64,000 bases of DNA from an uncultured Spirochaetaceae bacterium (GCA_944392985.1 CALXYL010000007.1:15989-79988); one strand, 5' to 3'; shown: positions 2,240 through 51,263, counted from the first letter of the stretch. Translations and numbers: made by a program. The notes: generated by a model not told the origin, from the sequence alone.

Positions 2240-5200
2240 TCAGAAGTAGCGGATGCCGTAGGGGCTACCGAATGAGATATTCATATCAAATGTAATAGAT
2301 CCAGAATTCAGCACCCAGCATGATTCAACATCCCTTTCTGTTGAGCTAATAATACGATTTATCCTTTCAGGAAAGAGCAATGTTTCATCAACACTGGGAA
2401 GATACCAATCATCATAGCCATTGATTTCGGCATGATAAACAGCTTCAGCAATACTTACGTCCACCAAATAACCCCCTTCCTTTTCTGAATAAACATTACC
2501 GGCCCTCATCTCAACAAGAAGTTCAGTATTCCTCTTTCCTTCTCCTATTCCAGAGCGAGTGCAATCATATTCGTTGTATGTCTCTGTGCCATTCACGAAA
2601 AGATTTGGCCCATAAGGATCAGTCCGATAATATCCCATACGAAATGAATCAGGAGTATTGCTGAATGTGAATTCAGGGGTGTCTCCAGATGTTGATGTCT
2701 GATCAACCATGCCAGGGCTTATCTCAATGAATCTCCAGCCATCAGCACCAGCAGAATCATTGTCATAGATGATCCGTCCACCAGCAGGGCCCTCAATGCC
2801 GCTGAATAGGTCAATGGCTCTTATCCCAGAACAGTTGCCATCGGCATCCTTCAGCTGTAAAAATACAGATTCAGACTGCAATATGCTTTCCACTTCTTCA
2901 ACACTAAGTGAGTAATCAATCGAAGAAGCAAAGGGCTTCCACGCTGCTTCGGAAATGGCATTAGGATCAGTAGAGATCCTGTATTCCGCAATATCCTTTC
3001 CATTCATGCATTCAACATCAATGTGGAGCCGTCCCGGAGTGATTGAATAGCCATCATCAATCTTCGCATATGCCTCCCCATCCCATTCAGCTGTGTAGGC
3101 AATATATGCATCACCTTTATAGCCAGCATATTCATTCCTGTCCTTCAGCCACCCATCATAGACGACCTTGGTCAGATTGAAGTCATCATAGAAATCCTCG
3201 ATGAATGACAGATTCGCATCCTCACTGCTTGCCTCAAGCTCACGGGTATTCGTATACCCCCAGAAGTTGAAGCGGAAATCGTGTTCAGTTGTCGAGATTC
3301 TTGAGAAATCAGTCGAAACATTATCAAGGTCATTGAAGGAGACTCTGATTGGAATAGAATAATCGGGACGATTCTCCAAGAGTCTTAATTCAGTATCAGC
3401 AAAGTCGTTTGCAAACATCTCAGTCTCTAATCCAAGCAACTCAAGCTCAATACTTTCGCAATCTTCAAATGTATTCGATTCAAGCAGGAAATAACCACCA
3501 AAGCCTCTCTGCTCGATTGAAAAAACATCAAACCCCCGAATCAGATTATCGGCAATAATGTATTGTGGTACGTATTCATTGAATTTAATGGATGAAGAAT
3601 CACCAGAAGCAGAAATCACATTGCCTACAAGATACAGATCCTTATTTTCGCCATATATGTCAGAGAAAAGGTTGGCTGTAACCGAACATCCAACGATCAT
3701 CGAATCCCCAGAGATACGAACATCACCAACCACCTCCGAATCCTTCAGGATGCCTGAGAACTCACTCAGTGCCTCTCCTTCTGATGTGATCCTTGAATCA
3801 GTCACGAAGAGGTTGCCGGAGATACCTTCTACCGGATCGAGCATCAGCACGTGTTCAAGGATACTGCCGCTCTGGTAAACAGGATCATACTCCGATCCCG
3901 AATAAGTAACATCGCTCACGCCCCGAATGCCAAGCCACTTGCCTTCACCCGCATCCGCACCGCGCATCGATATCGGCTCAGCTTCAGTTCCTCTTGCACT
4001 GAGCGTACCTTCCACCTGAATGCAGTAAGGCCCTATGAAGATGACATCGGCACCTGGATCGACAGTCAGCGTATCCCCTTCCTCGACAAGGATGTCGCTT
4101 TCAACAAAGTATGGTCCCTCTTCCTTCGTCCAGTGGAGATCATCCCCTTTGAGAACCCCACCGACAGTCCTCTTCTGGTCTGTCAGCTCTATTGAATCAC
4201 TCTTGATCTCAGAAACATTGCCAGCTTTGTCAAACACCCTTATGTAGACGTTCTTGATGCCATTGACTTCCTCAAGTTCCCGCTCAAAGACAGCATAGTA
4301 GTCCTCGTAATCGACAGGGGTATCGAAATCAGTGTCAAAGAACACCTGCATCTTATCAAGGCCGCTGCCCTCGTCATTTGCATCAATCCCAATCGTGACA
4401 ATCCTGCTGACAGATGTATTCGCACCATCATTGATTGTCACGCTGCTGAGAACAGGAGCTGTTGTATCCACAAGTGTGAAATCCTCCACTTCCCTTGTGG
4501 CAAGCGGCTCAAGCCCTGTGATAACCGTACTCTGGTTATCCCATCCATCCTTGCTGAATGTGACAGTATGGGTACCGGTGGAGATCAGATTCCCAATGTA
4601 GTAATAGCCGGTGGAATCAGTGACAACGGAAAGCTCCCCATCCACCCCTTCTGTCGTGACCGTCACCTTTATTCCCGCATGATAGCTCATATCCTCAAGA
4701 TAGACATGACCTATGATGTTGGAGGAATTCGGAATCATCATAATCGTACCGAGATCACAGACTGGTGAAGCTGAGACTGTGAACTGATGCTCTGCACGCG
4801 GTGTATTCTCACGCTCCGCTATCAACTTGTAGTCTCCGACAGGAACATGCTCAAAGCGGAATCCGCCGCTCTTGTCAGTCACCACACTGAACTGCGTATT
4901 CTCAAGATAGACATGGACACCATCATCATCAGCGGCTGCAACATCGATGCGCCCGGCAACAGGAACGGCGATTGCCTTGAGTTCGCTGTCAGGCACAGAG
5001 AATGTACCATTCGTAAGAACCGTGATTGTCTCCGCAATGGTAACGCTATCGAAATCATCACGGCTGTATCTGATACCGCCAGGATAATTCGCAGATGGCA
5101 CAGAAAGCTCCCAGCTTCCATCATCTGCAGTCTCTGTGGAATAACTGGTGCCGACAAGCTCCACAAGTATCCCGCTATGGTCAGCATACCCCTCAAGCCT

Positions 5201-7207
5201 CGCTATTCCGCTGATCCTGCCCTTATCCACAATGAGCGTCACGGGATCAAGGATATGCTCCCCTTCCCCTGTTATATCGACACTTTCAAGAGTGACGGTA
5301 CCAAACCCCCTTGCACTCAGGGTGATGATATATTCGCCTGGCTTCATGCCGACAAGGGAGAAGCTGCCCTCCGAATTGGAAAGAGCGGAATAGATCAGGC
5401 CGTGATCCGCGACAGAGGTTGCCGTTATCGTGACGCCAGCATAATCAGAGAGCGTCTCAAGCGTGACAGTTCCTGAAACGCTCCTCACCCCGGCTTTGAG
5501 CGTGAGAGCATCCAGCGTCACATCAGAAGCGGGTGCCACCGCGATATCCTCGATCACAGCAGAGACATAGCCATCCTTCGAGATTGTCAGGTCATATGTC
5601 CCGGGGACTACGGAACTGAATACGAAGCTGCCATCCTGCCCAGTCGTCACAGTCCTGCTGTTTGTATCATTCTCCAGGAGAAGAAGGATTCCCTCATGGC
5701 TCGCGGCTCCTTCAAGCGTCACTTTGCCGCTTACTACCGCAGAGCTTCTCTTCAAAGTCACATCATCCATCTGGTACGATCCGCCAAGGCTCACGTTGAC
5801 GATGGTTGGCGACGATGAGATATACCCGCTCATCGAAGCAGAGACAAGGTACTCAGCCTCCTTTTCGATCCTTATGGCAAATGTGCCATCTGCACCGGTT
5901 ACGCCAGTATAGCTGACAGCGTCATCAAGATTGATGCTTGAAGCGGTGACAGTGATGCCGGAATGCACATCGCTGCCGCTGATAAACACCTTGCCTAGAA
6001 CATAGCCATAGGCCGCAGCAAGGGAAGCATTGACAGATGATGATTCCCCTGCCGTGACTGATACGCTCTCCTTGACGGTTGTGTAACCATCCTTCATGAA
6101 TGAGATGGTATATGTTGCCGGAATGACATTGGAAAGGATGAATGCGCCATCCTCACCTGTCTGGATTGAATAGCTGTATCCTTCGCTCTCCGCAAGTATT
6201 GTAACATTCTGAGGCACATTTCCATCAGTAAGGGTGACGCTTCCCTCGATGGTGCCTCCCGCTGAATCGATTGTCACAAAAGGAACATCCGTAATGGCGG
6301 GAGACTTCACTTCTATATCCTTCAGGATGGCATTCTGATAGCGGCTGTCATTGGGAACGAAGCGCAGCGTGTAGATACCATCGGAGAGGTTGCCGATTGT
6401 GTACCTTCCGCTCTCATTGCTCGTCGTTGTGCTGCTGTTCGTCGCATCGTTCTGGTCAGTTGCTGTGACAGTGACGATAGGGAGCTCTGCACCTGTGAAT
6501 CCTCGGAAGATGACACTGCCGCTGATAGCGCCCACATCAGGGACAAGAACCACATCGGGAACAGTGACTGTATTCTCTTCCTTTTCCTCGTCGATATGAA
6601 GCCATATATCTGTCTCATAATGCGTGGAATAGCCATCATGCATGAAAGCGACCCTGTATTCCCCTTCAGGGACATTGGAAATCGTCCACGCTCCGCTTCC
6701 GTCGGTCTTTGCCATATATGATGAACCGGGGATGAATACATCGATGCCTGTGAATTCGCTTTCTCCAGAAAGAGTGACCCTGCCGGTAAGCGATCCCAGT
6801 GGCTTCATGGTCACGATACCGGCATCTCCGCCTTCGCCTTTATCAGCATAGACATCATCCTTCTTGCCGCCATAATGCCCAAGATGAAGGCCATTGTCTC
6901 CCACCTTCCTTGTGACCGTATTGCCGAATGGCTCTGTAGAGAAATAGAGAGTATATGGAACATCCTCCTTGAGCCCGGTGATCACGAAGCTGCCATCTTC
7001 GGAAGCCGTATATTGATTGCCTGTCTGTCCGACCTGGATGAAGATATCAGAAGGAGAGACGCCACTATCCTCTGGCACCATCACCCGCCCTTTGATAGTG
7101 GGTGTCTGGAAATCCTGCTCCGTTATGCTGTCATTGCATGACGCAAACAGTGAAACAAGGATAAGGATGAGAACAACAAAGGAAATCCCGGATATTCTTA
7201 CACGCAT
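2240..7207 (-). CDS. Giant modular surface lipoprotein (1655 aa): lipobox, about 10 CarboxypepD_reg-like repeats, beta-helix-like region, DUF1566-like C-terminus
   Basis: Signal peptide plus lipobox: MRVRISGISFVVLILILVSLFASC. About ten ~85-aa repeats follow the pattern (I/V)xGxVxL...G(I/V)xV......T(D/G)xxGxFxxxxVxxGxYxxxxSxxGY. The region starting GDTLTVDPGADVIFIG looks like a beta-helix. The C-terminus contains GPAGGRIIYD...GWRFIE...GYDDWYLPSVDE. Confidence 0.8.
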   Translation of the reverse strand: MRVRISGISFVVLILILVSLFASCNDSITEQDFQTPTIKGRVMVPEDSGVSPSDIFIQVGQTGNQYTASEDGSFVITGLKEDVPYTLYFSTEPFGNTVTRKVGDNGLHLGHYGGKKDDVYADKGEGGDAGIVTMKPLGSLTGRVTLSGESEFTGIDVFIPGSSYMAKTDGSGAWTISNVPEGEYRVAFMHDGYSTHYETDIWLHIDEEKEENTVTVPDVVLVPDVGAISGSVIFRGFTGAELPIVTVTATDQNDATNSSTTTSNESGRYTIGNLSDGIYTLRFVPNDSRYQNAILKDIEVKSPAITDVPFVTIDSAGGTIEGSVTLTDGNVPQNVTILAESEGYSYSIQTGEDGAFILSNVIPATYTISFMKDGYTTVKESVSVTAGESSSVNASLAAAYGYVLGKVFISGSDVHSGITVTASSINLDDAVSYTGVTGADGTFAIRIEKEAEYLVSASMSGYISSSPTIVNVSLGGSYQMDDVTLKRSSAVVSGKVTLEGAASHEGILLLLENDTNSRTVTTGQDGSFVFSSVVPGTYDLTISKDGYVSAVIEDIAVAPASDVTLDALTLKAGVRSVSGTVTLETLSDYAGVTITATSVADHGLIYSALSNSEGSFSLVGMKPGEYIITLSARGFGTVTLESVDITGEGEHILDPVTLIVDKGRISGIARLEGYADHSGILVELVGTSYSTETADDGSWELSVPSANYPGGIRYSRDDFDSVTIAETITVLTNGTFSVPDSELKAIAVPVAGRIDVAAADDDGVHVYLENTQFSVVTDKSGGFRFEHVPVGDYKLIAERENTPRAEHQFTVSASPVCDLGTIMMIPNSSNIIGHVYLEDMSYHAGIKVTVTTEGVDGELSVVTDSTGYYYIGNLISTGTHTVTFSKDGWDNQSTVITGLEPLATREVEDFTLVDTTAPVLSSVTINDGANTSVSRIVTIGIDANDEGSGLDKMQVFFDTDFDTPVDYEDYYAVFERELEEVNGIKNVYIRVFDKAGNVSEIKSDSIELTDQKRTVGGVLKGDDLHWTKEEGPYFVESDILVEEGDTLTVDPGADVIFIGPYCIQVEGTLSARGTEAEPISMRGADAGEGKWLGIRGVSDVTYSGSEYDPVYQSGSILEHVLMLDPVEGISGNLFVTDSRITSEGEALSEFSGILKDSEVVGDVRISGDSMIVGCSVTANLFSDIYGENKDLYLVGNVISASGDSSSIKFNEYVPQYIIADNLIRGFDVFSIEQRGFGGYFLLESNTFEDCESIELELLGLETEMFANDFADTELRLLENRPDYSIPIRVSFNDLDNVSTDFSRISTTEHDFRFNFWGYTNTRELEASSEDANLSFIEDFYDDFNLTKVVYDGWLKDRNEYAGYKGDAYIAYTAEWDGEAYAKIDDGYSITPGRLHIDVECMNGKDIAEYRISTDPNAISEAAWKPFASSIDYSLSVEEVESILQSESVFLQLKDADGNCSGIRAIDLFSGIEGPAGGRIIYDNDSAGADGWRFIEISPGMVDQTSTSGDTPEFTFSNTPDSFRMGYYRTDPYGPNLFVNGTETYNEYDCTRSGIGEGKRNTELLVEMRAGNVYSEKEGGYLVDVSIAEAVYHAEINGYDDWYLPSVDETLLFPERINRIISSTERDVESCWVLNSGSITFDMNISFGSPYGIRYF

Positions 7208-10814: not shown

Positions 10815-12364
10815 GACCTCCCGGCTCTTTTCTTCTGGCGGGAGTTGCGAACGATGCTCTCAGCCCTCTCACGGGCCTTGCCAGTCCTCGCCTTCCCTCC
10901 CGGCTTACGCGAAGTCCCCTTCGCGCCTTTCTTCGGGGCATTCGACGCCTTGATGACCCGCTGTATCTCAGCTTCCGCCTTCGTCGGCCCGTTATCATTG
11001 AGGCTTGGATTGCGCCGGCGCTCCCTAAGGGAAATCTCAATCGGGATGTACGTGAAGCCGAAATCACGGCGGATCATGTTCTTCAGGTAAGAGACATATG
11101 TATCAGGGAACGCGTGGATGCGATTTACGAAGAAGAGGAAGCGGACAGGGGAAGCGCTGACCTGCGTACCATAAAGCACCTTATAATGACCGGCACTGCC
11201 GCGGGGCGGCTCATTGTCTTTTGTCCATTCCTTCAGAGCCGCATTCAGCGCTGATGTGTCGACACGCTTCGTAAGCTGCTTCCATACGCTCCACACCATA
11301 TCCAGCAGCTTCCCTATATCAATGCCCTTCAGCGCCGATATAGGCATCAAAGGAGCGAAGGAAAGCACGGGGAAGAGGAAGCGCACACGATCCTTGATCG
11401 CATCGATCTCATTCGGGATACCCCGCAGGAGATCAGTCTTGTTGAGGACGATTATGACGCCCTTTCCACGGCGTACGATGAGATCCGCGATCTTCTTGTC
11501 CTGCTCCGTGATCCCTTCCTGTATATCAACCATCAGGAGGACAACATCCGCATCATCGATCGTCTTGATCGCCCTGTTCACAGAGTAATACTCAACATCC
11601 TCCTCCACCTTCGACTTGCGCCGGATGCCCGCCGTATCAAGAACGGTGTATTCCGTCCCCTTATAGATGAAAGTACCGCGCATGACATCACGCGTGGTGC
11701 CGGCAATCGGGCTCACAATTGAGATATCGCGGCCAGTAAGGAGGTTCATCAGCGTCGACTTACCGGTATTGGGCTTGCCAAGGATAGCCAGCTTTATCGT
11801 CTCCGGTTCCTCTGGCTCCTCTTCCTCCCTCTCCAGATCCAGCATGCCGAGAAGGGAATCCTCAAGCTCCTCGATACCACTGCCATGGGCGGCGGAGATA
11901 CCGACGACACGCTGGTAGCCATATGAGAAGAAATTCCACACAAGATCATCCCGCCTCGGGTCATCTACCTTGTTCACTGCCAGCACGACTTTGTCCGTAT
12001 AGGGCCTGAGACGCTCTACAAGCATCAGATCCTCCGCCGTGACCTCTGTACAGTCCATAAGGAAGATGATGGCATCACTCTGCTCAAGGAGGGAAAGGGA
12101 CTTATCCGTGACAGCATAATCGATGCCTTCCTTGTCCAGCTTCACTCCACCCGAATCAACAAGGGTCACAGCATTGTTGCCAAGAAGCCAGCGCTCAGGG
12201 ATGGGATCCCTTGTAACGCCTGGCGTCGGATCCGTGATCGCCCTCCTCTTTCCGATAAGGCGATTGAAGAGAGTGGACTTGCCCGCATTCGGCCGCCCTA
12301 TGATCGAGATAAGGGGAAGATCGGTAGCTATATCCGCTTTGTTCCTGATATCAAGTTTTTCCAT
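10811..12364 (-). CDS. der: Ribosome-biogenesis GTPase Der (EngA) with a long basic C-terminal tail
   Basis: Two G domains (GRPNAGKSTLFN and GKPNTGKSTLMN; DTAG; NKVD/NKTD) plus a KH-like domain. About 70 extra K/R-rich residues sit at the C-terminus. Confidence 0.93.
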   Translation of the reverse strand: MEKLDIRNKADIATDLPLISIIGRPNAGKSTLFNRLIGKRRAITDPTPGVTRDPIPERWLLGNNAVTLVDSGGVKLDKEGIDYAVTDKSLSLLEQSDAIIFLMDCTEVTAEDLMLVERLRPYTDKVVLAVNKVDDPRRDDLVWNFFSYGYQRVVGISAAHGSGIEELEDSLLGMLDLEREEEEPEEPETIKLAILGKPNTGKSTLMNLLTGRDISIVSPIAGTTRDVMRGTFIYKGTEYTVLDTAGIRRKSKVEEDVEYYSVNRAIKTIDDADVVLLMVDIQEGITEQDKKIADLIVRRGKGVIIVLNKTDLLRGIPNEIDAIKDRVRFLFPVLSFAPLMPISALKGIDIGKLLDMVWSVWKQLTKRVDTSALNAALKEWTKDNEPPRGSAGHYKVLYGTQVSASPVRFLFFVNRIHAFPDTYVSYLKNMIRRDFGFTYIPIEISLRERRRNPSLNDNGPTKAEAEIQRVIKASNAPKKGAKGTSRKPGGKARTGKARERAESIVRNSRQKKRAGRS

Positions 12365-14045
12365 TGTTGAATTCCTTTAGAGCCTTCTCTATCGAGGTGG
12401 CATCGGGAAGAGAGAGTATCCTATCGGCAAAATCGGCGCAACTCTCCCATTCAAGGCTCCTGATCCTCCTCCTTACCTCCAGCACGGAATGCGCTGTCAT
12501 GCTCAGCTCATCAAAGCCAAGCCCGACAAGAAGCGGGGCATACTCCGCCTGGCCTGCCATCTCCCCGCACACGGAGACTGTGACACCCTTTGCCTTCGCC
12601 GCGTCAACGACATACTTCAGCAGCCTTATGACAGCAGGATGCAGTGGCCTGTAGAGATGAGCAATCCTCTCGTTGCCTCTGTCGACAGCAATCGTGTACT
12701 GGACAAGGTCATTCGTGCCGATGGACATGAAATCAACATGATCTGCGAGGATATCAGCAGTGATGGCAGCAGAAGGCGTCTCTATCATCGTGCCGATCTT
12801 CATGTTCTCATCGAACGCAATGCCCTCCTTCCTGCAATCTGCCTTCACCTCCTCTAGGTAATCAAGAACCTCCAGAAGCTCCTCCGATCCAGATATCATC
12901 GGGAACATCAGGCGGACGGAGGGGGAAAGTGCCGATGCCTTGAGTATTGATACAAGCTGTGAACGGAAAAGATCCTTCCTCTCCATACAGAACCGTACGG
13001 CGCGCCACCCAAGGACAGGGTTCTCCTCCTCCCTGGCCATCCCATCAGCCATCTTGTCCCCGCCAAGGTCATATGTCCTGAATGTTACCGGGCCATATCC
13101 CCCCATCGCACTGGCAGCCTTTCCGTAGACCTCATCATCGCCATGGAATCCATGGAGCACAAGGAACTCTGTCCTGAAGAGCCCGATTCCCTCAGCCCCA
13201 GCCGCGATAGCGCCATCAATGCCTTCCAGTCCCTCGACATTGCACATGAGATGGATCCTGTGCCCGTCAAGCGTCACCGCAGGAAGCGTTGCCTCCTTCT
13301 TCAGTTCCTTCTCATTGCGCAGCGCAATGCCCTTACGCGCACGGAAGCTCCGTATGGTCTTTTCATCAGGATCGATGATGGCAATCCCATCCCTGGCATC
13401 CATGGCAACAGTAGCACCATCCTCCGTTTCCCCCGAGAAACTCCCAAGTCCCAATATGGCAGGAATCTCATCAGAATGCGCAAGGATAGCGATATGGCTT
13501 GTCTGGCTTCCTGAATCAAGAAGAAGGCCCAGAACACAGCTCCTGTCCATCTGCATCAGCTCTGATGGCAGAAGGTAATCAGCAACGATGATCGAAGGCT
13601 CTGCCAGGGTTATCGACGAGGAAATGCCGGCAATCGCAGAAAGAAGCCGGTTCTCCGCATCCTTTATATCCGAGATGCGCTCAGCAAAATACGCATCCCC
13701 CAGCGCCGCGAGCGCTGCAGTGTATTTCTCTGTCGCAGCCTCCACAGCCCAGGAAGCAGTGTACCTGCCCCTCGTGATGTTATCACGGATAAGCGAAAGG
13801 TAATCAGGATCGGAAAGCATGCTCTCATAGACAGAGAGGATATCCGCATCCTCCTTGGTGGAAGGCTTGATCGCATGGAGATCATCCAGCACGCTGCTGC
13901 GTGCTTCCTCGAATGCCATCTTCTCCATCTCAGGATCATCGGAAAGGCGATGCTCCACATCAAGCGGCGTATGGCGGAACACAGCCGCCTTCGCAACAAC
14001 AACACCTGGAAATACCCCTATACCGCTTCTGCTTATCATCAGCAT
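12351..14045 (-). CDS. ptsI: PEP-protein phosphotransferase (PTS enzyme I)
   Basis: 564 aa. Phospho-His region is GSQTSHIAILA. PEP-utilising motifs are LGGDK, FMSIGTNDLVQYT and SVCGEMAG. Confidence 0.92.
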   Translation of the reverse strand: MLMISRSGIGVFPGVVVAKAAVFRHTPLDVEHRLSDDPEMEKMAFEEARSSVLDDLHAIKPSTKEDADILSVYESMLSDPDYLSLIRDNITRGRYTASWAVEAATEKYTAALAALGDAYFAERISDIKDAENRLLSAIAGISSSITLAEPSIIVADYLLPSELMQMDRSCVLGLLLDSGSQTSHIAILAHSDEIPAILGLGSFSGETEDGATVAMDARDGIAIIDPDEKTIRSFRARKGIALRNEKELKKEATLPAVTLDGHRIHLMCNVEGLEGIDGAIAAGAEGIGLFRTEFLVLHGFHGDDEVYGKAASAMGGYGPVTFRTYDLGGDKMADGMAREEENPVLGWRAVRFCMERKDLFRSQLVSILKASALSPSVRLMFPMISGSEELLEVLDYLEEVKADCRKEGIAFDENMKIGTMIETPSAAITADILADHVDFMSIGTNDLVQYTIAVDRGNERIAHLYRPLHPAVIRLLKYVVDAAKAKGVTVSVCGEMAGQAEYAPLLVGLGFDELSMTAHSVLEVRRRIRSLEWESCADFADRILSLPDATSIEKALKEFNNGKT

Positions 14046-14081
14046 CCATCATCGCACAATTCAGGAAGATTGAGAAATACC

Positions 14082-14113
14082 AAAAAAGAGGGCATCCCAT
14101 ATGGAACACCCTC
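14082..14113 (-). terminator. Rho-independent terminator, copy 1 of a repeated hairpin
   Basis: Minus strand reads GAGGGTGTTCC-ATAT-GGGATGCCCTC followed by TTTTTT. The stem is 11 bp with 3 G-U pairs, so it forms only in the minus-strand RNA. It lies 70 nt after the stop at 14183. Confidence 0.7.
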
Positions 14114-14182
14114 TCCTTCACTGTGCTTATCTTCAAAGCCCCCTCTGCATTCAGATTGCAGAGAGCTCTGAAGGCATTGGAA

Positions 14183-15037
14183 TCAGCCTTCTGTACCAGC
14201 AGCCGCTGTCGCAGTTACATGCACATTAAGCGTGAATGTACCCTTGTAAGCTGCGGTGCTATCAAGAACTGTATATTCCTTGACCAAGGTCTTGTCCGTA
14301 TTTTCAAGAGGCTGCTTATATGGAACAGGGTATGTGCCGAAATCAGCAGCATCCTTGGTCAGGATAGAGATTCCTGTAACCGCATCGTTTTCCTTTGTGA
14401 CGACATAAACAAGATCTCCAGCCGCAGAGTCATCATAATCATACGAAAGAAGCGTAGTCGAATCCGTGCACTTGACTGTATATACACCATCTTCTACGAT
14501 CAGAGCGGCATCGCCATATTTCACATCTTTCGCACTGAGAGGCTTTGTTTCTGCTGAAATCACCGCATATCCATCATATTCCATTCCATTGACCTCAACA
14601 GACGTACCAGCAAGGATCGAGAACAGCAGGGCAGCCTTGTTGACCATAAGATTGCCATCCTCCATCTTCCATGCCTTCTCCCTATAGAAAACGTTCATAC
14701 CAATGGATACAGCCATCGCATCGTCATCTTCTGCATACTCATGCCCAAGAAGCGTAACACTCGTTACATTCTCTGCTGCTCCAAGATTGACGTACATGTC
14801 ACTGATTGTGGAAACAGCCTCTGTGATTTTGTCTGCACCAACATAATCGGCTTTGCCATCATTGGAATTTGCGACCTTGTTATGTACAGAAACAAAGTCC
14901 TTGAGGAATGCTGTCATCTCAGTATTGACTTCAGCCACATCCCTCTGATCAAGGGCCGGCACAGCAGTTGAATCATCGCATGCCGCAAACATAAACAGCA
15001 TCATTACCGCAATAAGCATAGAAAGGATTCTCTTCAT
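14183..15037 (-). CDS. Putative lipoprotein (284 aa), unknown function
   Basis: Signal peptide plus lipobox: MKRILSMLIAVMMLFMFAAC. A GGAGG SD lies upstream of the ATG. No recognisable catalytic motif. Confidence 0.75.
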   Translation of the reverse strand: MKRILSMLIAVMMLFMFAACDDSTAVPALDQRDVAEVNTEMTAFLKDFVSVHNKVANSNDGKADYVGADKITEAVSTISDMYVNLGAAENVTSVTLLGHEYAEDDDAMAVSIGMNVFYREKAWKMEDGNLMVNKAALLFSILAGTSVEVNGMEYDGYAVISAETKPLSAKDVKYGDAALIVEDGVYTVKCTDSTTLLSYDYDDSAAGDLVYVVTKENDAVTGISILTKDAADFGTYPVPYKQPLENTDKTLVKEYTVLDSTAAYKGTFTLNVHVTATAAAGTEG

Positions 15038-15068
15038 TCTTTACCTCCAGGAAAACAATCCTTTTCAA

Positions 15069-15100
15069 AGTTTACCCCCCCCCCGGTAGCTTATCGTCAA
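15069..15100 (-). promoter_or_regulatory. Promoter cassette with a G10 tract in the -35/-10 spacer
   Basis: Minus strand reads TTGACG (15100-15095), ATAAGCTACC, G10, then TAAACT (15074-15069). The spacer is 20 nt. The SD and ATG at 15037 follow about 30 nt later. Confidence 0.55.
15075..15084 (-). repeat. Homopolymeric G10 tract (C10 on the + strand)
   Basis: Counted directly: tttaCCCCCCCCCCggtagc. Confidence 0.9.
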
Positions 15101-15132
15101 GGGAAATCAACCACTTATTCCCTAGAATAATC

Positions 15133-15163
15133 AAAAGAGGGCATCCCAAAAGGAACACCCTCT
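15133..15163 (-). terminator. Rho-independent terminator, copy 2 of the repeated hairpin
   Basis: Minus strand reads GAGGGTGTTCC-TTTT-GGGATGCCCTC followed by TTTT, about 20 nt after the stop at 15183. Confidence 0.7.
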
Positions 15164-15182
15164 CATTGAGCTATGCAATTAA

Positions 15183-16619
15183 TTACAGCCTTGATACGGA
15201 ATACATCTGCCGCACATCCATCTGATCATTGGAAAGGAGGCTGCTTTCTTTGTTCTCATGATTCCATCTGAATGTACCAATAGCATTGCCTGCAGTCTGT
15301 GCCGTGTAGATTATGTCCCCATTACCGCTTACGAAAAGTGAACCATCAAGAAGAGGGTGCTCAACCGTAATTGTCGTTATCTCTTTGGCATTGAAATCCG
15401 CCATATAGATTACTTTCTCGCCTTCATTTCCCCAATACACCGCTTCATCCGTGATCTCAGCAGTTGAGAGGGAAGGGAATTCACTTCCATCCGTGAGCCT
15501 CATCGTCCTTATGTTGCTGATACTTCCTTCTTCATCTACATCAACAACGGAAAGAAGGGGTTCAACATAGCGATTCTCAGCCCTTATAAGTGTTGTGGTA
15601 TCACCATTGAAAACAGATACACCGGAATTCTTGTTGTAGTCATGTTCTTCGTTATGTTCTTCTCCCGGCTTCTCCTCAATCAGCGCATACTCTCCCTCAC
15701 CAGATACAGATACACTCATACCCTCATCTATCACCAGTTTGTATATCCTGAATCCATAATTTCCATCTGACATTTCCAGCTCACGGGCAAAGAGATTTCC
15801 ACCTACACGGAAGATCATGTTATCAAGAGGAGAACCAGGCTCAAATACGGTTTTCTTTTCCACATTCTTTCCTGTAGCGTCATACACCATCAGATATTGC
15901 TCTTTCGGTTCATCTTCCTTAAAATCCTCCGATGATTTGATGAAAACGATATAATCATCGGTATAGACCTCTGCACGTCCTTCTATTGGAGCACGCTCAT
16001 GATTCACCGCAGTCATATTTGACGGGCTGTCTTTGAGGAACGTCCTGAGCACTCCATCCTTGTCGAGAAGATAGACCCTATTATCTGAATAGGCGATAGC
16101 TCCATCCGCAGGCTCATCATAAAAGACAAGGAAGTCATCCCCGCTGTCCGCAGAGAACGGCTCATTCACGAGATAAGCCTCCCCTCTTTCCAAATCTATG
16201 AAAGCCGCATTATCATCACGATCAACATCCACGATATCAAGGGACAGCCCTCCAGGGATGAACACAGGAATGCTTTTTACCCTGACAAGCCTGTCAAAGA
16301 CACAGAGGAAGGTATTGCCTCCTGTCTGGTGGATCGTGACAGAACCATCAGAAGAACCCATTATGACAAAGCTGTTGCCTGAGCGGAATACAATCGGAGA
16401 AAAGCCACCATCGGCAGTATACGAAAGATACTCCTCCACATCATCAGATACCGCTCTTGAACCACTCTGGAAACCCGATGATGCAATCTCATTGATCGCA
16501 CTGGCATCTTCCACAGACAGTGACTGCCTGATCTCTTCAGCAACGGTATCATCAGATTCCGGAACCTGACATGAAGAAAGAACCAGCGGGATAAGAAGGA
16601 AAAGCAACAACCTTACCAT
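15183..16619 (-). CDS. Putative lipoprotein (~478 aa), unknown function
   Basis: The track ORF starts at a TTG (16637). The ATG at 16619 has a GGAGGG SD and gives MVRLLLFLLIPLVLSSC (signal peptide plus lipobox). Confidence 0.75.
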   Translation of the reverse strand: MVRLLLFLLIPLVLSSCQVPESDDTVAEEIRQSLSVEDASAINEIASSGFQSGSRAVSDDVEEYLSYTADGGFSPIVFRSGNSFVIMGSSDGSVTIHQTGGNTFLCVFDRLVRVKSIPVFIPGGLSLDIVDVDRDDNAAFIDLERGEAYLVNEPFSADSGDDFLVFYDEPADGAIAYSDNRVYLLDKDGVLRTFLKDSPSNMTAVNHERAPIEGRAEVYTDDYIVFIKSSEDFKEDEPKEQYLMVYDATGKNVEKKTVFEPGSPLDNMIFRVGGNLFARELEMSDGNYGFRIYKLVIDEGMSVSVSGEGEYALIEEKPGEEHNEEHDYNKNSGVSVFNGDTTTLIRAENRYVEPLLSVVDVDEEGSISNIRTMRLTDGSEFPSLSTAEITDEAVYWGNEGEKVIYMADFNAKEITTITVEHPLLDGSLFVSGNGDIIYTAQTAGNAIGTFRWNHENKESSLLSNDQMDVRQMYSVSRL

Positions 16620-16646
16620 TGAGAGAGCCCTCCGCAACTCCCCTGA

Positions 16647-16676
16647 ATGCTACCCCCCCCCGTGGAAAATCGTCAA
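16647..16676 (-). promoter_or_regulatory. Promoter cassette with a G9 tract in the -35/-10 spacer
   Basis: Minus strand reads TTGACG (16676-16671), ATTTTCCAC, G9, then TAGCAT (16652-16647). The spacer is 18 nt. Confidence 0.5.
16653..16661 (-). repeat. Homopolymeric G9 tract (C9 on the + strand)
   Basis: Counted directly: gctaCCCCCCCCCgtgg. Confidence 0.9.
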
Positions 16677-16688
16677 GAAGTGGCTATC

Positions 16689-16720
16689 AAAAAAGAGGGC
16701 ATCCCATAAGGAACACCCTC
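16689..16720 (-). terminator. Rho-independent terminator, copy 3 of the repeated hairpin
   Basis: Minus strand reads GAGGGTGTTCC-TTAT-GGGATGCCCTC followed by TTTTTT, 66 nt after the stop at 16786. Confidence 0.7.
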
Positions 16721-16785
16721 TCCATTGAACCTGCCTCCAAAACATTCCCTGCATTCAAGCAGCAGAGAGTTCTGGATGCAATGTC

Positions 16786-17538
16786 TTAGGCAGGATCAGT
16801 CTCAGTAACAACTGGCCTTACCTCAATGCCAGAATCCTTATATGCTTCCCTTACATCCGCAATATCGGCACCTGCGACATTGGAGAAATCAATATTGGCC
16901 TTATCCCAGTTCTCTGTTGCAACAAGCTGGAGGCCAACAAGGTTCTCTGCAGCCACATCAGCACCAAATACGATACCACTGTTGAACTTGACGACATTCA
17001 GGGACACATCCGAAGCATTCACATAAATCGGAGTATAGCAATCTGTGAACTCACAGTTCTCTACTTTTCCACCTGTTGAAAGGTTGAGACCGATTGTAAC
17101 AGAAGCATCAAGTCCTTCATTCTCAGTTGACCAGGTTTCACCCTTGATTGCGCTGTCTTTGAATGTGAATCCTGTTGCACCGACATTGCCAGCTTCAATA
17201 AGATAAACACCGGTAGCCTTAACATCAAACTTCACATTGGAAATTGTGACATTTGAAGCTGTGACATTGATGAGATAGCTTGTTCCAAGATCAGCGGGCT
17301 TCTTGTTGACAATCATTGAGTGATCATTGCCATTGATTGTCAGACCTTCGACATCAAGTTCGAGCTTATCAGTGATCTCAATATCAGCAGCAAGGGAAAT
17401 ATCTGTCTCACCAGCCTCAATCTTCTCAACGAGCTCATCATAGCTCTTTACGCCTTCTGTTTCACTGGCATTTGGGTCACATGCAGTGAATGCGAAAAGC
17501 ATCAGAGCAGCAAGAAGCAGGATAGAAATCTTCTTCAT
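16786..17538 (-). CDS. Putative lipoprotein (250 aa) with parallel beta-helix-like repeats
   Basis: Signal peptide plus lipobox: MKKISILLLAALMLFAFTAC. Repetitive turns include NVTASNVTISNVKF, GKVENCEFTDC and ASDVSLNVVKF. An AGGAGG SD is present. Confidence 0.75.
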   Translation of the reverse strand: MKKISILLLAALMLFAFTACDPNASETEGVKSYDELVEKIEAGETDISLAADIEITDKLELDVEGLTINGNDHSMIVNKKPADLGTSYLINVTASNVTISNVKFDVKATGVYLIEAGNVGATGFTFKDSAIKGETWSTENEGLDASVTIGLNLSTGGKVENCEFTDCYTPIYVNASDVSLNVVKFNSGIVFGADVAAENLVGLQLVATENWDKANIDFSNVAGADIADVREAYKDSGIEVRPVVTETDPA

Positions 17539-17566
17539 AATGTCCTCCTAAATGATTTCTCCCTAA

Positions 17567-17597
17567 ACTTTACCCCCCCCCGGTAGCTTGTCGTCAA
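17567..17597 (-). promoter_or_regulatory. Promoter cassette with a G9 tract in the -35/-10 spacer
   Basis: Minus strand reads TTGACG (17597-17592), ACAAGCTACC, G9, then TAAAGT (17572-17567). The spacer is 19 nt. It is nearly identical to the cassette at 15069-15100. Confidence 0.55.
17573..17581 (-). repeat. Homopolymeric G9 tract (C9 on the + strand)
   Basis: Counted directly: ctttaCCCCCCCCCggtagc. Confidence 0.9.
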
Positions 17598-17648
17598 GAG
17601 AAAATCCACCCGTTGAGCACATCTGCTGCAAGCAGTAGAATACGGGCT

Positions 17649-18149
17649 ATGGTAAAGCAGAAAAGGAAGGGGGATGCATTGCCTAAGGTAATCCTTGCTG
17701 CCCTCTTTGCTCTTATTATCGCATCTGCAGCCGCCATTGTCGCTGTGCGTCTGCCATATGTCCGCTCCTATCTGAGGCTGGATGAGCACATCGCGTTATG
17801 GAAGGAAGGGCCTGACCAAGGGGCGATGATCAGGGTTCCCCGCATTGTCTATACAGCAGACGGAGAAGAGGCTGTAGAGGATGTCACGCTTCCATCATTC
17901 GGACGTGATATACTCCACCTCAGCGCTGAAGCAGCCCTTATCCCAGCGGGAGAAGGCTTTGTATCATATATTCCAGATGGGACAAAACTGATAGGCATCT
18001 CAGAAAGGGATGGATATATCTACATCAACCTTACTGATGAAATACGCGATGCAGACAGGATGGCCTTCAAGGAAATAGAGAGGACTCTCGCCCTCTCGGT
18101 TGATTTCATTGAGATCAGATTCATGATCAACGGGAAGCTCATCGGGTAA
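17649..18149 (+). CDS. Membrane-anchored GerMN-like domain protein
   Basis: The track ORF begins at a TTG (17613). The ATG at 17649 gives MVKQKRKGD plus a TM helix (VILAALFALIIASAAAIVAV). GerM-like pattern: LIPAGEGFVSYIPDGTKLIGISERDGYIYINLTDEI...IEIRFMINGK. Confidence 0.6.
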   Translation: MVKQKRKGDALPKVILAALFALIIASAAAIVAVRLPYVRSYLRLDEHIALWKEGPDQGAMIRVPRIVYTADGEEAVEDVTLPSFGRDILHLSAEAALIPAGEGFVSYIPDGTKLIGISERDGYIYINLTDEIRDADRMAFKEIERTLALSVDFIEIRFMINGKLIG

Positions 18150-18921
18150 AGCGCTCGATGCTGATGGCCTTTCCCGTGACAGCATCGGCCTCGATCACCA
18201 CTCCCTGAATATGGGCTGGCCCTGACGCGACCTCGCTCTTCATCGGAAGCTGGGTAAGCTGTCTCTCGATGCTCTTTGCGGGGTCGGAGCCTATCACCGC
18301 ATCAGTGACGCCGGTCAGCCCCAGATCCGTGATATAAGCAGTTCCCTTTGGAAGTATCTTCTCATCCGCAGTCTGCACATGCGTATGCGTACCTGCAACA
18401 GCCGTGACAGCGCCATCAAGCGCAAACGCGAAAGCCTCCTTCTCAAGGGTATCCTCCGCATGGAAATCGACGAAGATGAGCTTCGTCTCCTTCTGGATAT
18501 CCCTGAGCACCTTCTCAACGCGCTTCACAGGATCATCAATCGGAGACATCATCACGCGGCCCTGCACATTGATCACAGCAAACGAAAAGCCATTCTTCTT
18601 CCTGACGGTATAGCCATGGCCGATGCAGGGATCAGGGTAATTCAGAGGACGGAGGATATCCTCGCTGGAATCGAGGATGGGGTATATCTCCTCCTTCTGC
18701 CATATATGGTTGCCGCTTGTTATGACATCGGCACCCATGCTCTTCATTGACTGGTAATCGGAGACAGAGATGCCGAAACCGCCAGCGGCGTTCTCACCAT
18801 TGAGTATGACCGCATCAGCCTTCATCTCCTTCACAAGCGAAGAGAGCCCTACGAAAAGGGCTCCCATTCCTGCGCCTCCGGATACGTCCCCGATCATGAG
18901 GACACGGACACGATCCTTCAC
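18139..18921 (-). CDS. ymdB: YmdB-family metallophosphoesterase (TIGR00282 type)
   Basis: RVLMIGDVSGGAG...AVILNGENAAGGFGIS...SGNHIW...DFHAE...GTHTHVQTADE. It lies immediately downstream of rny, as in Bacillus. Confidence 0.88.
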   Translation of the reverse strand: MKDRVRVLMIGDVSGGAGMGALFVGLSSLVKEMKADAVILNGENAAGGFGISVSDYQSMKSMGADVITSGNHIWQKEEIYPILDSSEDILRPLNYPDPCIGHGYTVRKKNGFSFAVINVQGRVMMSPIDDPVKRVEKVLRDIQKETKLIFVDFHAEDTLEKEAFAFALDGAVTAVAGTHTHVQTADEKILPKGTAYITDLGLTGVTDAVIGSDPAKSIERQLTQLPMKSEVASGPAHIQGVVIEADAVTGKAISIERFTR

Positions 18922-36296: not shown

Positions 36297-36433
36297 TGAA
36301 TACCCTCCTTCTTTCGGAATGCCATAGGTTTCAGGAAAAAAGGACAAGGCATGAAGCACCCAAAGGCATCCTATATACAGAAACCCTAAGGGATGGAAAT
36401 GCAGCAGTCAAGGAAAAACAGCATCTGCAGCTC

Positions 36434-51101: not shown

Positions 51102-51263
51102 TAGGAGATTCAGTAAACGGGAATGCCACACGGATGAAATGCTCTGGGATTCTGAATATCCTCATCAGTTACCTATTTCGTGGCATAGATGCACCTGAGA
51201 AGAAATCCTCCTCGCTCTGACCAAGGACAAATCCACTGTGCATTTCCGAGTGAAAAAAAAAAG

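What the first reader, a model, noticed from the sequence alone, without database searches (positions are those of the whole stretch)
15069..17597. Three tandem lipoprotein genes each driven by the same promoter cassette with a poly-G tract in the -35/-10 spacer (candidate combinatorial phase variation)
On the minus strand, each of the three lipoprotein genes (14183-15037, 15183-16619, 16786-17538) is preceded by the same cassette. It consists of TTGACG, a short spacer, an uninterrupted G-run, and then directly a -10-like hexamer. The G-runs are G10 at 15075-15084, G9 at 16653-16661 and G9 at 17573-17581. The hexamers are TAAACT, TAGCAT and TAAAGT, with an SD and ATG about 25-30 nt further on. 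The resulting -35/-10 spacings are 20, 18 and 19 nt. All are longer than the 17-nt optimum, and each changes by one with every slippage event. Copies 1 and 3 are nearly identical over about 40 nt (TTGACGAyAAGCTACC-Gn-TAAAsTTT), although the downstream ORFs are unrelated. Homopolymer tracts inside promoter spacers are an established phase-variation switch. Examples are poly-G upstream of Treponema pallidum tpr genes, poly-A in Mycoplasma hyorhinis vlp promoters, and homopolymer tracts in Neisseria opc/porA promoters. Three independent switches on three surface lipoproteins would allow eight expression states.
Basis: partly seen in the sequence, partly recalled or inferred. Interest (0 to 1): 0.8.

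Follow-up and report, generated by a model that had tools for sequence, protein, structure and literature searches.

The report
Poly-G promoter switches on three lipoprotein genes
An uncultured spirochaete carries three neighbouring surface-lipoprotein genes, each behind its own promoter with a slippery run of 8-10 G's between the two promoter boxes, a known way for bacteria to switch surface proteins randomly, and here the runs do differ in length between near-identical strains.

Summary
On the minus strand, three separate gene units each read TTGACG, 9-10 nt, G9-10, TAnnnT, Shine-Dalgarno, ATG, lipoprotein ORF, then a near-identical terminator hairpin. These are the only G/C runs of 7 or more in the 64 kb.

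- **Spacing:** five of the six ordinary TTGACn/TAnnnT pairs that sit outside the called ORFs have 17-nt spacers. The poly-G promoters have 18-20.
- **Tract variation:** across 31 metagenome records of the same species, all three tracts vary from G8 to G10, with G9 the commonest. In contigs at least 99.9% identical to the window, the only indels lie in the tracts.
- **Relatives:** related spirochaete species carry the same design (G8, G9, G11, G12) in front of other lipoprotein genes.
- **Island:** the three-gene block is a low-GC insertion absent from relatives. Its proteins are near-orphans and diverge fast. In some strains the mature part of gene 3 is replaced by unrelated sequence, exactly between the signal-peptide cysteine and the stop codon.

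Verdict: a well-supported candidate promoter-spacer phase-variation locus of the porA / tp0126 / vlp type, so a new member of a known kind. Expression switching itself is not tested.

In passing, the same design is abundant upstream of Tat-lipoprotein genes in human-gut metagenomes.

The parts
17567..17597 (-). Promoter cassette 3: -35 TTGACG (17592-17597), 10-nt ACAAGCTACC, G9 tract (17573-17581), -10 TAAAGT (17567-17572). Spacer 19 nt.
   Evidence: Tract is G8x2, G9x21, G10x1 among 24 records.
16786..17538 (-). lp3: 250-aa lipoprotein, signal peptide MKKISILLLAALMLFAFTAC (17479-17538), SD AGGAGG 17544-17549. Beta-helix-like mature part.
   Evidence: Weak Pectate_lyase_5 hit; homologues carry PF13229 Beta_helix. 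The mature part 16786-17476 is replaced by unrelated sequence in L243/L244 and L245/L246.
16685..16783 (-). 3' module of lp3: 3' UTR plus intrinsic terminator hairpin (16685-16723, GGAGAGGGTGTTCCTTATGGGATGCCCTCTTTTTT).
   Evidence: family D2.: -30.1 kcal/mol, z -6.3. About 75% identical over about 100 nt to the 3' module of lp1. Homology with the replaced alleles resumes here.
16647..16676 (-). Promoter cassette 2: -35 TTGACG (16671-16676), 9-nt ATTTTCCAC, G9 tract (16653-16661), -10 TAGCAT (16647-16652). Spacer 18 nt.
   Evidence: Tract is G8x1, G9x15, G10x5 and GGGGGTGG x1 among 22 records.
15183..16619 (-). lp2: 478-aa lipoprotein, signal peptide MVRLLLFLLIPLVLSSC, SD GGAGG 16629-16633. All-beta prediction.
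   Evidence: (gene callers use the ATG at 16619). Only 2 homologue clusters. AF2 pLDDT 45.9, all strands.
15127..15165 (-). Intrinsic terminator after lp2 (GAGAGGGTGTTCCTTTTGGGATGCCCTCTTTT).
   Evidence: (D2).: -23.6 kcal/mol, z -3.6.
15069..15100 (-). Promoter cassette 1: -35 TTGACG (15095-15100), 10-nt ATAAGCTACC, G10 tract (15075-15084), -10 TAAACT (15069-15074). Spacer 20 nt in the window, 19 in most strains.
   Evidence: Tract is G8x5, G9x19, G10x4 among 28 records.
14183..15037 (-). lp1: 284-aa lipoprotein, signal peptide MKRILSMLIAVMMLFMFAAC, SD GGAGG 15044-15048. Predicted helix plus beta-sandwich-like domains.
   Evidence: 6 homologue clusters. AF2 pLDDT 68.7 with no PDB match above TM 0.28. 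62 nt and 28 aa differences to strain L238, while ptsI has 0.
14078..14179 (-). 3' module of lp1: 3' UTR plus intrinsic terminator hairpin (14081-14120).
   Evidence: (D2).: -24.1 kcal/mol, z -4.1..
14078..17597 (-). The whole three-gene island, inserted between ptsI (12351-14045) and the gerM-like gene (17613-18149, + strand). GC 43-49% against 53-56% in the flanks.
   Evidence: In related species L011, L012, L015, L016, L017 and L019, ptsI lies directly after ymdB/gerM. Composition.

Best explanation
The locus is a 3.5-kb accessory island in an uncultured Spirochaetaceae bacterium. It holds three separate single-gene transcription units for lipoproteins.

Each unit is driven by a sigma-70-type promoter. 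Its spacer between -35 (TTGACG) and -10 (TAnnnT) consists of 9-10 ordinary bases plus a G8-10 homopolymer that abuts the -10 hexamer.

Inferred mechanism: slipped-strand mispairing during replication adds or removes single G's. That changes the -35/-10 spacing one base at a time between 17 and 20 nt, and so turns transcription of each gene up or down, heritably, reversibly and independently of the other two.

By analogy with this organism's other promoters (17 nt) and with T. pallidum tp0126 and N. meningitidis porA, the commonest state (G9, spacer 18-19) is predicted to be weak or off. Shorter tracts (spacer 17-18) are predicted to be the 'on' states.

A second layer of variation acts on the same units. 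The promoter, 5' UTR and signal peptide on one side, and the 3' UTR with its terminator on the other, are conserved. The mature-protein coding part between them diverges quickly, or is exchanged outright between strains.

Shown here: the architecture, its non-random nature, tract-length polymorphism among strains, conservation of the design in related species, the island status, and the fast divergence and replacement of the proteins. Inferred only: that the hexamers are the promoter actually used, that expression depends on tract length, and that the proteins are surface-exposed.
For: - **Architecture and chance:**. These are the only G/C runs of 7 or more in 64 kb, with 0.02 expected against 3 sites found.
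- **-10 position:** the G-run is followed directly by TAnnnT in every independent spirochaete cassette. These are the window's three, plus L011/L012 (TAGGCT), L016 (TATATT) and L091-L099 (TAGCCT/TAGCTT). The same holds in 106 of 123 metagenome hits whose search pattern did not require it.
- **17 nt is the local norm:** five of the six other TTGACn/TAnnnT pairs outside called ORFs have 17-nt spacers. One of them sits upstream of tRNA-Thr.
- **Tract polymorphism:** (31 records; G8-G10 at all three tracts, and spacer 17 reached twice at t2). One search shows no indel outside the tracts in contigs at least 99.9% identical to the window. L005 has 0 mismatches over 9.2 kb but three indel bases, all in two tracts.
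- **Control homopolymer:** the T10 run at 51253-51262 is unchanged in the four contigs that cover it and are otherwise 98-100% identical.
- **Other species:** G8 against G9 at one orthologous gene (L012 and L011); G12 in L016; G8, G9 and G11 at the 257-aa gene of L091-L099.
- **Transcriptional insulation:** three near-identical strong terminators.
- **Targets:** lipobox signal peptides; near-orphan families; excess amino-acid divergence against the flanks; exact replacement of the mature part.
- **Precedent:** T. pallidum tp0126 has poly-G between -35 and -10 with an optimum at 17 nt. In tprL most tracts are G9 in vivo, G8 is active and G10 is not. porA works the same way (PMC7864442). Spacer indels switch vlp, maa2 and vmm in mycoplasmas (PMC2268961).
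Against: - No transcription data exist, so the promoter assignment rests on consensus matches alone.
- The length differences come from assembly consensus sequences, several of them at 2-6x coverage. Homopolymers of 9-10 are error-prone. Some ENA and Logan records may be the same sample assembled twice, so the counts are not fully independent.
- The distribution is narrow: G9 in 55 of 74 calls, and t3 is G9 in 21 of 24. The predicted optimum of 17 nt is reached only twice. No G7 was seen at the two cassettes with a 10-nt pre-G segment. Either the genes are mostly off everywhere, or the optimum for a G-rich spacer is not 17.
- G9 is the commonest length whether the pre-G segment is 9 or 10 nt. 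Selection on total spacing would not predict that.
- The control T10 run is T8 in one slightly divergent strain. Long homopolymers therefore vary at neutral sites too.
Confidence: 0.72

Rival explanations
1. The G-run is a fixed-length promoter element: a DNA-structural spacer or the binding site of a regulator, kept at G9 by selection. It sets a constant or factor-regulated promoter strength. The few plus-or-minus-one differences are noise or mildly harmful variants, not a switch.
For: - G9 dominates at all three tracts.
- G9 is also the commonest length in other species: L011 and 7 of the 8 loci L091-L098.
- The commonest length does not shift when the pre-G segment is 9 rather than 10 nt.
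- TACC-Gn-GGTA is partly palindromic in most cassettes.
Against: - Lengths range from 8 to 12 across species and strains.
- In the human-gut family with the same design, near-identical cassettes spread widely: G7x3, G8x33, G9x40, G10x16.
- Interrupted tracts exist (GGGGGTGG in L004, GGGGGAGGGG in L091).
- A run of 9-10 G's is intrinsically unstable, whatever else it does.
Confidence: 0.12
2. The tracts are real, but the observed length differences are sequencing or assembly errors at G homopolymers in low-coverage Illumina assemblies. There is no evidence of biological hypervariability.
For: - Contig coverages are 2-8x where stated.
- Several contigs break exactly at a tract: L242, and L227 at t2.
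- Read data cannot be inspected here.
Against: - Independent records that share one allele agree on non-modal lengths. G8 occurs in BRZ_QM, ONAT_4499, ERZ16268146 and ERR10610537. G10 at t2 occurs in BRZ_QL and ERR4096590.
- t3 is G9 in 21 of 24 records, while t1 and t2 vary more. Uniform error would not predict that.
- Differences between species (G8, G11, G12) are too large to be error.
- The T10 control is unchanged in contigs of identical background.
Confidence: 0.1
3. The functional promoter has a different geometry, as at T. pallidum tprL, where the start site lies 4 nt after the poly-G and the tract overlaps the -10 region. Alternatively the tract is transcribed. Tract length would then act through open-complex formation, reiterative transcription or the mRNA leader, not through -35/-10 spacing.
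For: PMC7864442 reports that geometry for tprL and other tpr genes in another spirochaete. No start sites are known here.
Against: TTGACR lies a constant 9-10 nt upstream of the tract, and TAnnnT lies directly downstream, in all cassettes. That fits the spacer geometry. With a start site 4 nt after the tract, TTGACG would sit at about -24 to -29, which is not a -35 position.
Confidence: 0.06

Closest known systems
Treponema pallidum poly-G promoter tracts (tp0126 OmpW homologue; tprE/G/J, tprF/I, tprL)
   Same: - Spirochaete host.
- Poly-G of 7-12 on the sense strand, upstream of genes for envelope proteins.
- For tp0126 the tract lies between -35 and -10, with the optimum at a 17-nt spacing.
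- In vivo the tracts are mostly G9, with minor G8 and G10 classes; 8 or fewer is permissive and 10 is off (PMC7864442).
- The window's tracts show the same G8-G10 range centred on G9.
   Different: - The proteins are unrelated: no Tpr/MOSP or OmpW domain. They are lipoproteins, not beta-barrel porins.
- The organism is an uncultured, Sphaerochaeta-related lineage, not a Treponema pathogen.
- The three units are tandem, each with a shared promoter design and a shared terminator.
- For most tpr genes the tract sits next to the start site rather than in the spacer.
Neisseria meningitidis porA (poly-G between -35 and -10)
   Same: A poly-G in the spacer, where one-base slippage changes the spacing and grades transcription from high to none (as summarised in PMC7864442).
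   Different: - In porA the full-length tract (G11) gives 17 nt, and shortening turns the gene off. Here the commonest tract gives 18-19 nt, so shortening is predicted to turn the genes on.
- porA is a single porin gene, not a tandem lipoprotein set.
Mycoplasma hyorhinis vlp family (also M. arthritidis maa2, M. mycoides vmm)
   Same: - Several adjacent single-gene units for surface lipoproteins.
- Each has its own promoter with a homopolymer in the -35/-10 spacer, which allows combinatorial expression (PMC2268961).
- A conserved 5' region (promoter and signal peptide) precedes divergent mature parts, as at slot 3 here.
   Different: - The tract is poly-A in vlp, poly-G here.
- Vlp mature regions contain in-frame tandem repeats that give size variation. 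None are present here.
- There is no sequence homology.
- Here the 5' regions of the three genes are only partly alike.

Membership tests
Promoter-spacer homopolymer phase-variation switch (porA / tp0126 / vlp type) | A homopolymer of about 8 nt or more lies between a -35-like and a -10-like hexamer. | tested here: met
   TTGACG, 9-10 nt, G9-10, TAnnnT at three sites. Expected 0.02 by chance.
Promoter-spacer homopolymer phase-variation switch (porA / tp0126 / vlp type) | Tract length differs among otherwise near-identical genomes. | tested here: met
   G8-G10 at all three tracts in 31 records. No indel lies outside the tracts in contigs at least 99.9% identical to the window. Caveat: these are low-coverage assembly consensus sequences.
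Promoter-spacer homopolymer phase-variation switch (porA / tp0126 / vlp type) | Mixed tract lengths within one population, and reversible switching. | not testable with these tools
   Needs raw reads or clonal lineages. Only contig breaks at tracts hint at heterogeneity.
Promoter-spacer homopolymer phase-variation switch (porA / tp0126 / vlp type) | The transcription start lies downstream of the -10 hexamer that flanks the tract. | not testable with these tools
   No transcript data. Indirect support: TAnnnT abuts the tract in every spirochaete cassette and in 106 of 123 metagenome hits.
Promoter-spacer homopolymer phase-variation switch (porA / tp0126 / vlp type) | Expression depends on tract length, with an optimum near a 17-nt spacing. 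| not testable with these tools
   Indirect only: five of the six other TTGACn/TAnnnT pairs outside called ORFs in the window have 17-nt spacers.
Promoter-spacer homopolymer phase-variation switch (porA / tp0126 / vlp type) | The controlled gene encodes a surface or secreted protein. | tested here: inconclusive
   All three have signal peptides ending in a lipobox cysteine. Surface exposure cannot be tested. Fast amino-acid divergence fits exposure.
Mycoplasma Vlp-type variable lipoprotein family | Tandem single-gene units, each with its own homopolymer promoter. | tested here: met
   Three units, each bounded by its own promoter and terminator.
Mycoplasma Vlp-type variable lipoprotein family | In-frame tandem repeats in the mature region (size variation). 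| tested here: not met
   Tandem Repeats Finder finds only one weak 15-nt, 2.4-copy array in lp3.
Mycoplasma Vlp-type variable lipoprotein family | Sequence homology to Vlp proteins. | tested here: not met
   No Pfam or NCBIfam family is assigned.
T. pallidum Tpr / TP0126 protein families | Homology of the regulated proteins (Tpr/MOSP or OmpW domains). | tested here: not met
   No such domains are found. lp1's structure model matches nothing above TM 0.28.
Invertible promoter (inverton) | Inverted repeats flanking the promoter, and a nearby site-specific recombinase. | tested here: not met
   No flanking inverted repeats around the promoters. The neighbours are rny, ymdB, a gerM-like gene, ptsI, der, a HAD hydrolase and a dehydrogenase.
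Integron gene-cassette array | Promoterless cassettes bounded by attC sites, next to an intI gene. | tested here: not met
   Each gene has its own promoter. The hairpins are terminators followed by T-runs. No integrase lies within the surrounding 20 kb. The replacement boundaries lie at the signal-peptide end and the stop codon, not at the hairpins. No formal attC model was run.

The most novel reading that the evidence does not exclude
The window shows one instance of a general, so far undescribed 'poly-G expression site' for variable surface lipoproteins in host-associated commensals.

- **5' module:** a conserved unit of TTGACR, 10 nt, Gn, TAnnnT, UTR and signal peptide.
- **3' module:** a conserved 3' UTR and terminator.
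- **Proposed roles:** together they would act as a slippage-driven expression switch and as recombination anchors for exchanging unrelated mature domains.
- **Possible reach:** the same promoter design appears in spirochaetes and, very abundantly, in a family of small Tat-lipoproteins in human-gut bacteria of 54-60% GC. This would make repeat-based phase variation a widespread companion to the well-studied invertons of the gut microbiome.
Probability: 0.35. Interest if true: 0.75.

Novelty: new member of a known kind. Interest (0 to 1): 0.6.

Why it matters
Promoter-spacer homopolymer switches are textbook in a few pathogens (Neisseria, T. pallidum, mycoplasmas). They are hardly documented in uncultured commensal or environmental lineages, where gut work on phase variation has centred on DNA inversion.

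This locus is a clean, testable example in an uncultured Spirochaetaceae. It has three independent switches, natural length variants already present in public metagenomes, and a second layer of variation through exchange of the mature domain behind a fixed promoter and signal peptide.

It also suggests a cheap metagenome-wide screen: TTGACR, 10 nt, Gn, TAnnnT upstream of signal peptides. In one scan that screen recovered more than a hundred similar sites in human-gut contigs.

If expression really follows tract length, homopolymer lengths in metagenomic reads could be read as the expression state of surface antigens in organisms that cannot be grown.

Tried and rejected
- **Exact cassette in species-representative genomes.** TTGACGANAAGCTACCG7 gave no match. 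The species, or this cassette sequence, is not among the representatives.
- **Rfam.** Searched over 13800-18200 at E up to 1: nothing, so no known leader or riboswitch.
- **Plasmid collection.** No match for the island DNA, or for the human-gut Tat-lipoprotein.
- **Inverton and integron readings.** Rejected: no flanking inverted repeats, no recombinase, and each gene has its own promoter.
- **Vlp-like size variation.** Rejected: no tandem repeats in the ORFs.
- **Function of the proteins.** Pfam and NCBIfam gave nothing usable beyond a weak pectate-lyase-like or beta-helix signal for lp3. The AF2 model of lp1 (pLDDT 68.7) matched only generic Ig/cadherin-like sandwiches at TM 0.28 or below. 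The lp2 model was too poor to search (pLDDT 45.9).
- **Habitat of the source samples.** The sample accessions appear in no paper of the library.
- **Earlier descriptions in gut commensals.** Two literature searches for promoter poly-G switches there found none. They returned papers on invertons and on pathogens. That is not proof of absence.
- **Compensation test.** I asked whether tracts are longer where the pre-G segment is 9 rather than 10 nt. The trend is right (G10 in 7 of 25 complete G-runs behind a 9-nt segment, against 3 of 48 behind a 10-nt one; G8 in 1 of 25 against 7 of 48). The records are not independent, so I draw no conclusion.
- **Control homopolymer.** The T10 run at 51253-51262 is stable in identical backgrounds but is T8 in one divergent strain. 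The control is too small to be decisive.


Full report
**1. The observation**

On the minus strand of 14078-17597 there are three tandem genes. Each is preceded by TTGACG, 9 or 10 further bases, an uninterrupted G-run, and directly afterwards a TAnnnT hexamer.
- G10 at 15075-15084, followed by TAAACT.
- G9 at 16653-16661, followed by TAGCAT.
- G9 at 17573-17581, followed by TAAAGT.

The spacers are 20, 18 and 19 nt. A Shine-Dalgarno and an ATG follow 27-31 nt later.

These are the only G or C runs of 7 or more in the 64 kb; the next longest is 6. The motif TTGACG-N8-14-G7 is expected 0.02 times in shuffled sequence.

Cassettes 1 and 3 share 31 nt at 94% identity. Cassette 2 shares only the design.

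All three products begin with a signal peptide ending in a lipobox cysteine.

These fold at -23.6 to -30.1 kcal/mol, with z-scores of -3.6 to -6.3. The three genes are therefore three insulated transcription units.

**2. Organism and context**

The neighbours are der, ptsI, a gerM-like gene, ymdB, rny and the ribosomal-protein/rpoA cluster.

The closest YmdB relatives among species-representative genomes are uncultured Spirochaetaceae/Spirochaetales MAGs, at 81% identity or less. Sphaerochaeta lies at about 55%. The habitat of the samples could not be established.

In six related species, ptsI lies directly after ymdB or the gerM-like gene. The 3.5-kb three-gene block is therefore an insertion. 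Its GC is 43-49%, against 53-56% in the flanks.

The three proteins are near-orphans: 7, 6 and 2 clusters among 5.8 billion proteins.
- lp3 is beta-helix-like.
- lp1 is modelled as a helix plus beta-sandwich-like domains, with no structural match above TM 0.28.
- lp2 is predicted all-beta, but at low confidence.

**3. Is the hexamer pair a promoter, and what spacing is normal here?**

A scan of the window for TTGACn followed by TAnnnT at 14-22 nt found eight sites outside called ORFs.
- Three are the poly-G cassettes (spacers 18, 19 and 20).
- Five have exactly 17 nt. They include sites upstream of tRNA-Thr, of the tuf region, and of a putative outer-membrane protein gene at 36383-36411.
- One site has 16 nt, and one site is ambiguous (two possible -10 hexamers, 15 or 20 nt).

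So 17 nt is this organism's norm, and the poly-G promoters are 1-3 nt too long in the states observed.

No Rfam family, no inverton-type inverted repeats and no in-frame tandem repeats are present.

**4. Tract-length polymorphism**

Exact-protein look-ups returned the same locus from many metagenome assemblies. Over 31 records:

| Tract | Gene | G8 | G9 | G10 | Other |
|---|---|---|---|---|---|
| t1 | lp1 | 5 | 19 | 4 | none |
| t2 | lp2 | 1 | 15 | 5 | GGGGGTGG x1 |
| t3 | lp3 | 2 | 21 | 1 | none |

Spacers run from 17 to 20 nt. Seventeen is reached only twice, both at t2.

In contigs at least 99.9% identical to the window over 5-10 kb, no indel lies outside the tracts. L005 has no mismatch in 9.2 kb but three indel bases in two tracts. 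L008 and L009 have no mismatch and differ only at t1.

Records that share one lp1 allele agree on non-modal lengths. Several distinct length combinations occur, as independent switches would produce.

As a control, the T10 run at 51253-51262 is unchanged in the four contigs that cover it and are 98-100% identical to the window. It is T8 in one slightly divergent strain.

Caveats:
- Coverage of many contigs is 2-8x.
- Some ENA and Logan records may be the same sample.
- The distribution is narrow around G9.

**5. Conservation of the design**

Related species carry the same layout in front of other lipoprotein genes:
- L011: TTGACA, 10 nt, G9, TAGGCT before an 809-aa lipoprotein. Its orthologue in L012 has G8.
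- L016: TTGACA, 10 nt, G12, TATATT before a 403-aa lipoprotein.

A further species (L091-L099) has an island between rpsG and tuf. There, two unrelated lipoprotein genes share an identical promoter, 5' UTR and signal-peptide start.
- One is the 68%-identical homologue of lp3, with an interrupted tract, GGGGGAGGGG.
- The other, of 257 aa, has G9 in seven contigs, G8 in one and G11 in one.

In about 170 kb of this clade's DNA, every G-run of 8 or more but one lies in this cassette context.

**6. A second layer of variation**

In strains L243/L244 and L245/L246, homology to the window runs through the promoter, the UTR and the whole signal peptide of lp3. It stops at window 17476/17477, just after the lipobox cysteine codon. 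It resumes at 16780-16782, a few bases after the stop codon. Between those points lie unrelated 217-aa and 200-aa proteins.

Protein divergence against the flanks:
- lp1 differs from strain L238 by 62 nt and 28 aa, while ptsI is identical and der has 6 silent changes.
- lp2 differs from L245 by 58 nt and 28 aa, while der has 47 nt changes and none in the protein.

The 3' UTR and terminator modules of slots 3 and 1 are about 75% identical over about 100 nt.

The conserved 5' and 3' modules thus bracket a fast-changing or exchangeable mature domain. This fits diversifying selection on exposed proteins, with homologous recombination in the conserved flanks. That last step is inferred.

**7. Mechanism proposed**

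Slipped-strand mispairing at the G-run changes the -35/-10 spacing one base at a time. It thereby sets the transcription of each lipoprotein gene independently.

Given the 17-nt norm, the dominant G9 state (18-19 nt) is predicted to be weak or off, and shorter tracts to be on.

The precedent is close. In T. pallidum the tp0126 poly-G lies between -35 and -10, with an optimum at 17 nt. The tprL tract is mostly G9 in vivo, with G8 and G10 minorities; G8 is active and G10 is not. N. meningitidis porA works through the same spacing principle (PMC7864442). Spacer indels switch vlp, maa2 and vmm in mycoplasmas (PMC2268961).

I put this at 0.72. The rivals are:
- A fixed-length regulatory or structural element, with the variation being noise (0.12).
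- Pure sequencing or assembly artefact for the length differences (0.10).
- A different promoter geometry, as at tprL (0.06).

**8. Comparison and novelty**

The locus works like the porA / tp0126 / vlp class and meets the features of that class that can be tested from sequence. It is not a member of the Tpr, OmpW or Vlp protein families, and it lacks Vlp-type repeats. It is neither an inverton nor an integron array.

It is a new member of a known kind. What is new is the host lineage, the triple tandem arrangement with shared terminators, and the coupling to exchange of the mature domain.

**9. Seen in passing**

One metagenome scan used TTGACRA-N5-TACC-G7 or longer.
- In 106 of 123 sites a TAnnnT hexamer follows the G-run directly, although the pattern did not ask for it.
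- 92 sites precede small (about 170-270 aa) lipoproteins with a conserved twin-arginine signal peptide, MSNISRR[KQS]FLKGAGVAALAVAAAGVLAGC, and variable mature parts. Some sit in tandem pairs 710-790 bp apart.
- Among these, tract lengths are G7x3, G8x33, G9x40 and G10x16, and they vary between cassettes with identical flanks.
- Contig GC is 54-60%. The host taxon was not determined.

I found no description of this in the searchable literature. It suggests that the design is widespread in gut bacteria.

**10. Verdict**

Function remains to be shown by read-level tract analysis, start-site mapping and reporter assays.

Noticed in passing
L100-L219 (metagenome contigs, mostly human gut), e.g. L158 7268-7290, L166 58-80 and 794-816, L174 3531-3553 and 4324-4346: The same promoter design (TTGACA, 10 nt ending TACC, G7-10, then TATTAT/TATATT/TAAAAT) is very common in human-gut contigs of 54-60% GC. 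It sits upstream of a family of small Tat-signal lipoproteins (MSNISRRKFLKGAGVAALAVAAAGVLAGC...) with variable mature parts, sometimes as tandem pairs. Tract lengths are G7x3, G8x33, G9x40 and G10x16. The host taxon is not identified, and no description turned up in the searchable literature.
   Followed up: partly
L091 9935-10003 and 12296-12367 (also L092-L099): A second spirochaete species has an island between rpsG and tuf. Two unrelated lipoprotein genes there (244 aa, 68% identical to lp3, and 257 aa) share an identical promoter, 5' UTR and signal-peptide start. The first has an interrupted tract, GGGGGAGGGG, which may be a 'locked' variant. The second has G9x7, G8 and G11.
   Followed up: partly
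window 36383-36411 (minus strand) and ORF about 35679-36299: At the equivalent rpsG-tuf slot, after the same 111-aa KilA-N-like gene, the window has an ordinary promoter, TTGACT-17 nt-TAGGGT, with no G-run. It precedes a 206-aa protein with a type I signal peptide that looks like a small beta-barrel outer-membrane protein.
   Followed up: partly
window 15022-15064 (minus strand): A 14-nt inverted repeat (86% complementary) pairs the 5' UTR of lp1 with its first codons. The Shine-Dalgarno and ATG lie in the 15-nt loop. This could add translational control (pair I16).
   Followed up: no
window 51253-51262: A T10 run lies directly after tRNA-Thr on the minus strand. I used it as a control homopolymer. 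It is T10 in four contigs and T8 in one slightly divergent strain (L259). One contig (L255) ends at this run.
   Followed up: yes
window 51009-51060 (+ strand): About four tandem copies of a 12-nt unit (CTCATTTACAGT / CTCGTTTACAGT / GCCATTTACAGT ...) lie just after a TTGACC hexamer, between the Diacid_rec/HTH_30 regulator gene and tRNA-Thr. Seen in the output. One strain has an indel at 51097.
   Followed up: no
window 2240-7207 (minus strand): A 1655-aa protein made of at least 8 CarboxypepD_reg / transthyretin-like repeats, probably a large surface protein.
   Followed up: no
L099 1760-1768 (minus strand): Another G9 run follows a perfect hairpin (GCGGGAGTGCTTATACTCCCGC) and lies 5 nt before TATAAT. 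It is next to a D5_N/DUF5906 primase-like gene, so the context is that of a mobile element.
   Followed up: no
L005 5992-6003, corresponding to window about 13936-13982: One otherwise identical contig lacks about 35 bp at the 5' end of ptsI, and the gene call is shortened to 539 aa. This is either an assembly artefact or a real deletion.
   Followed up: no
L242 position 1; L227 (t2 at the contig start); L109, L131, L151 (contig ends): Several contigs begin or end exactly at a poly-G tract. Mixed tract lengths, or poor reads across the run, would produce this. In L145 the tract and its -10 hexamer run into Nextera adaptor sequence.
   Followed up: no
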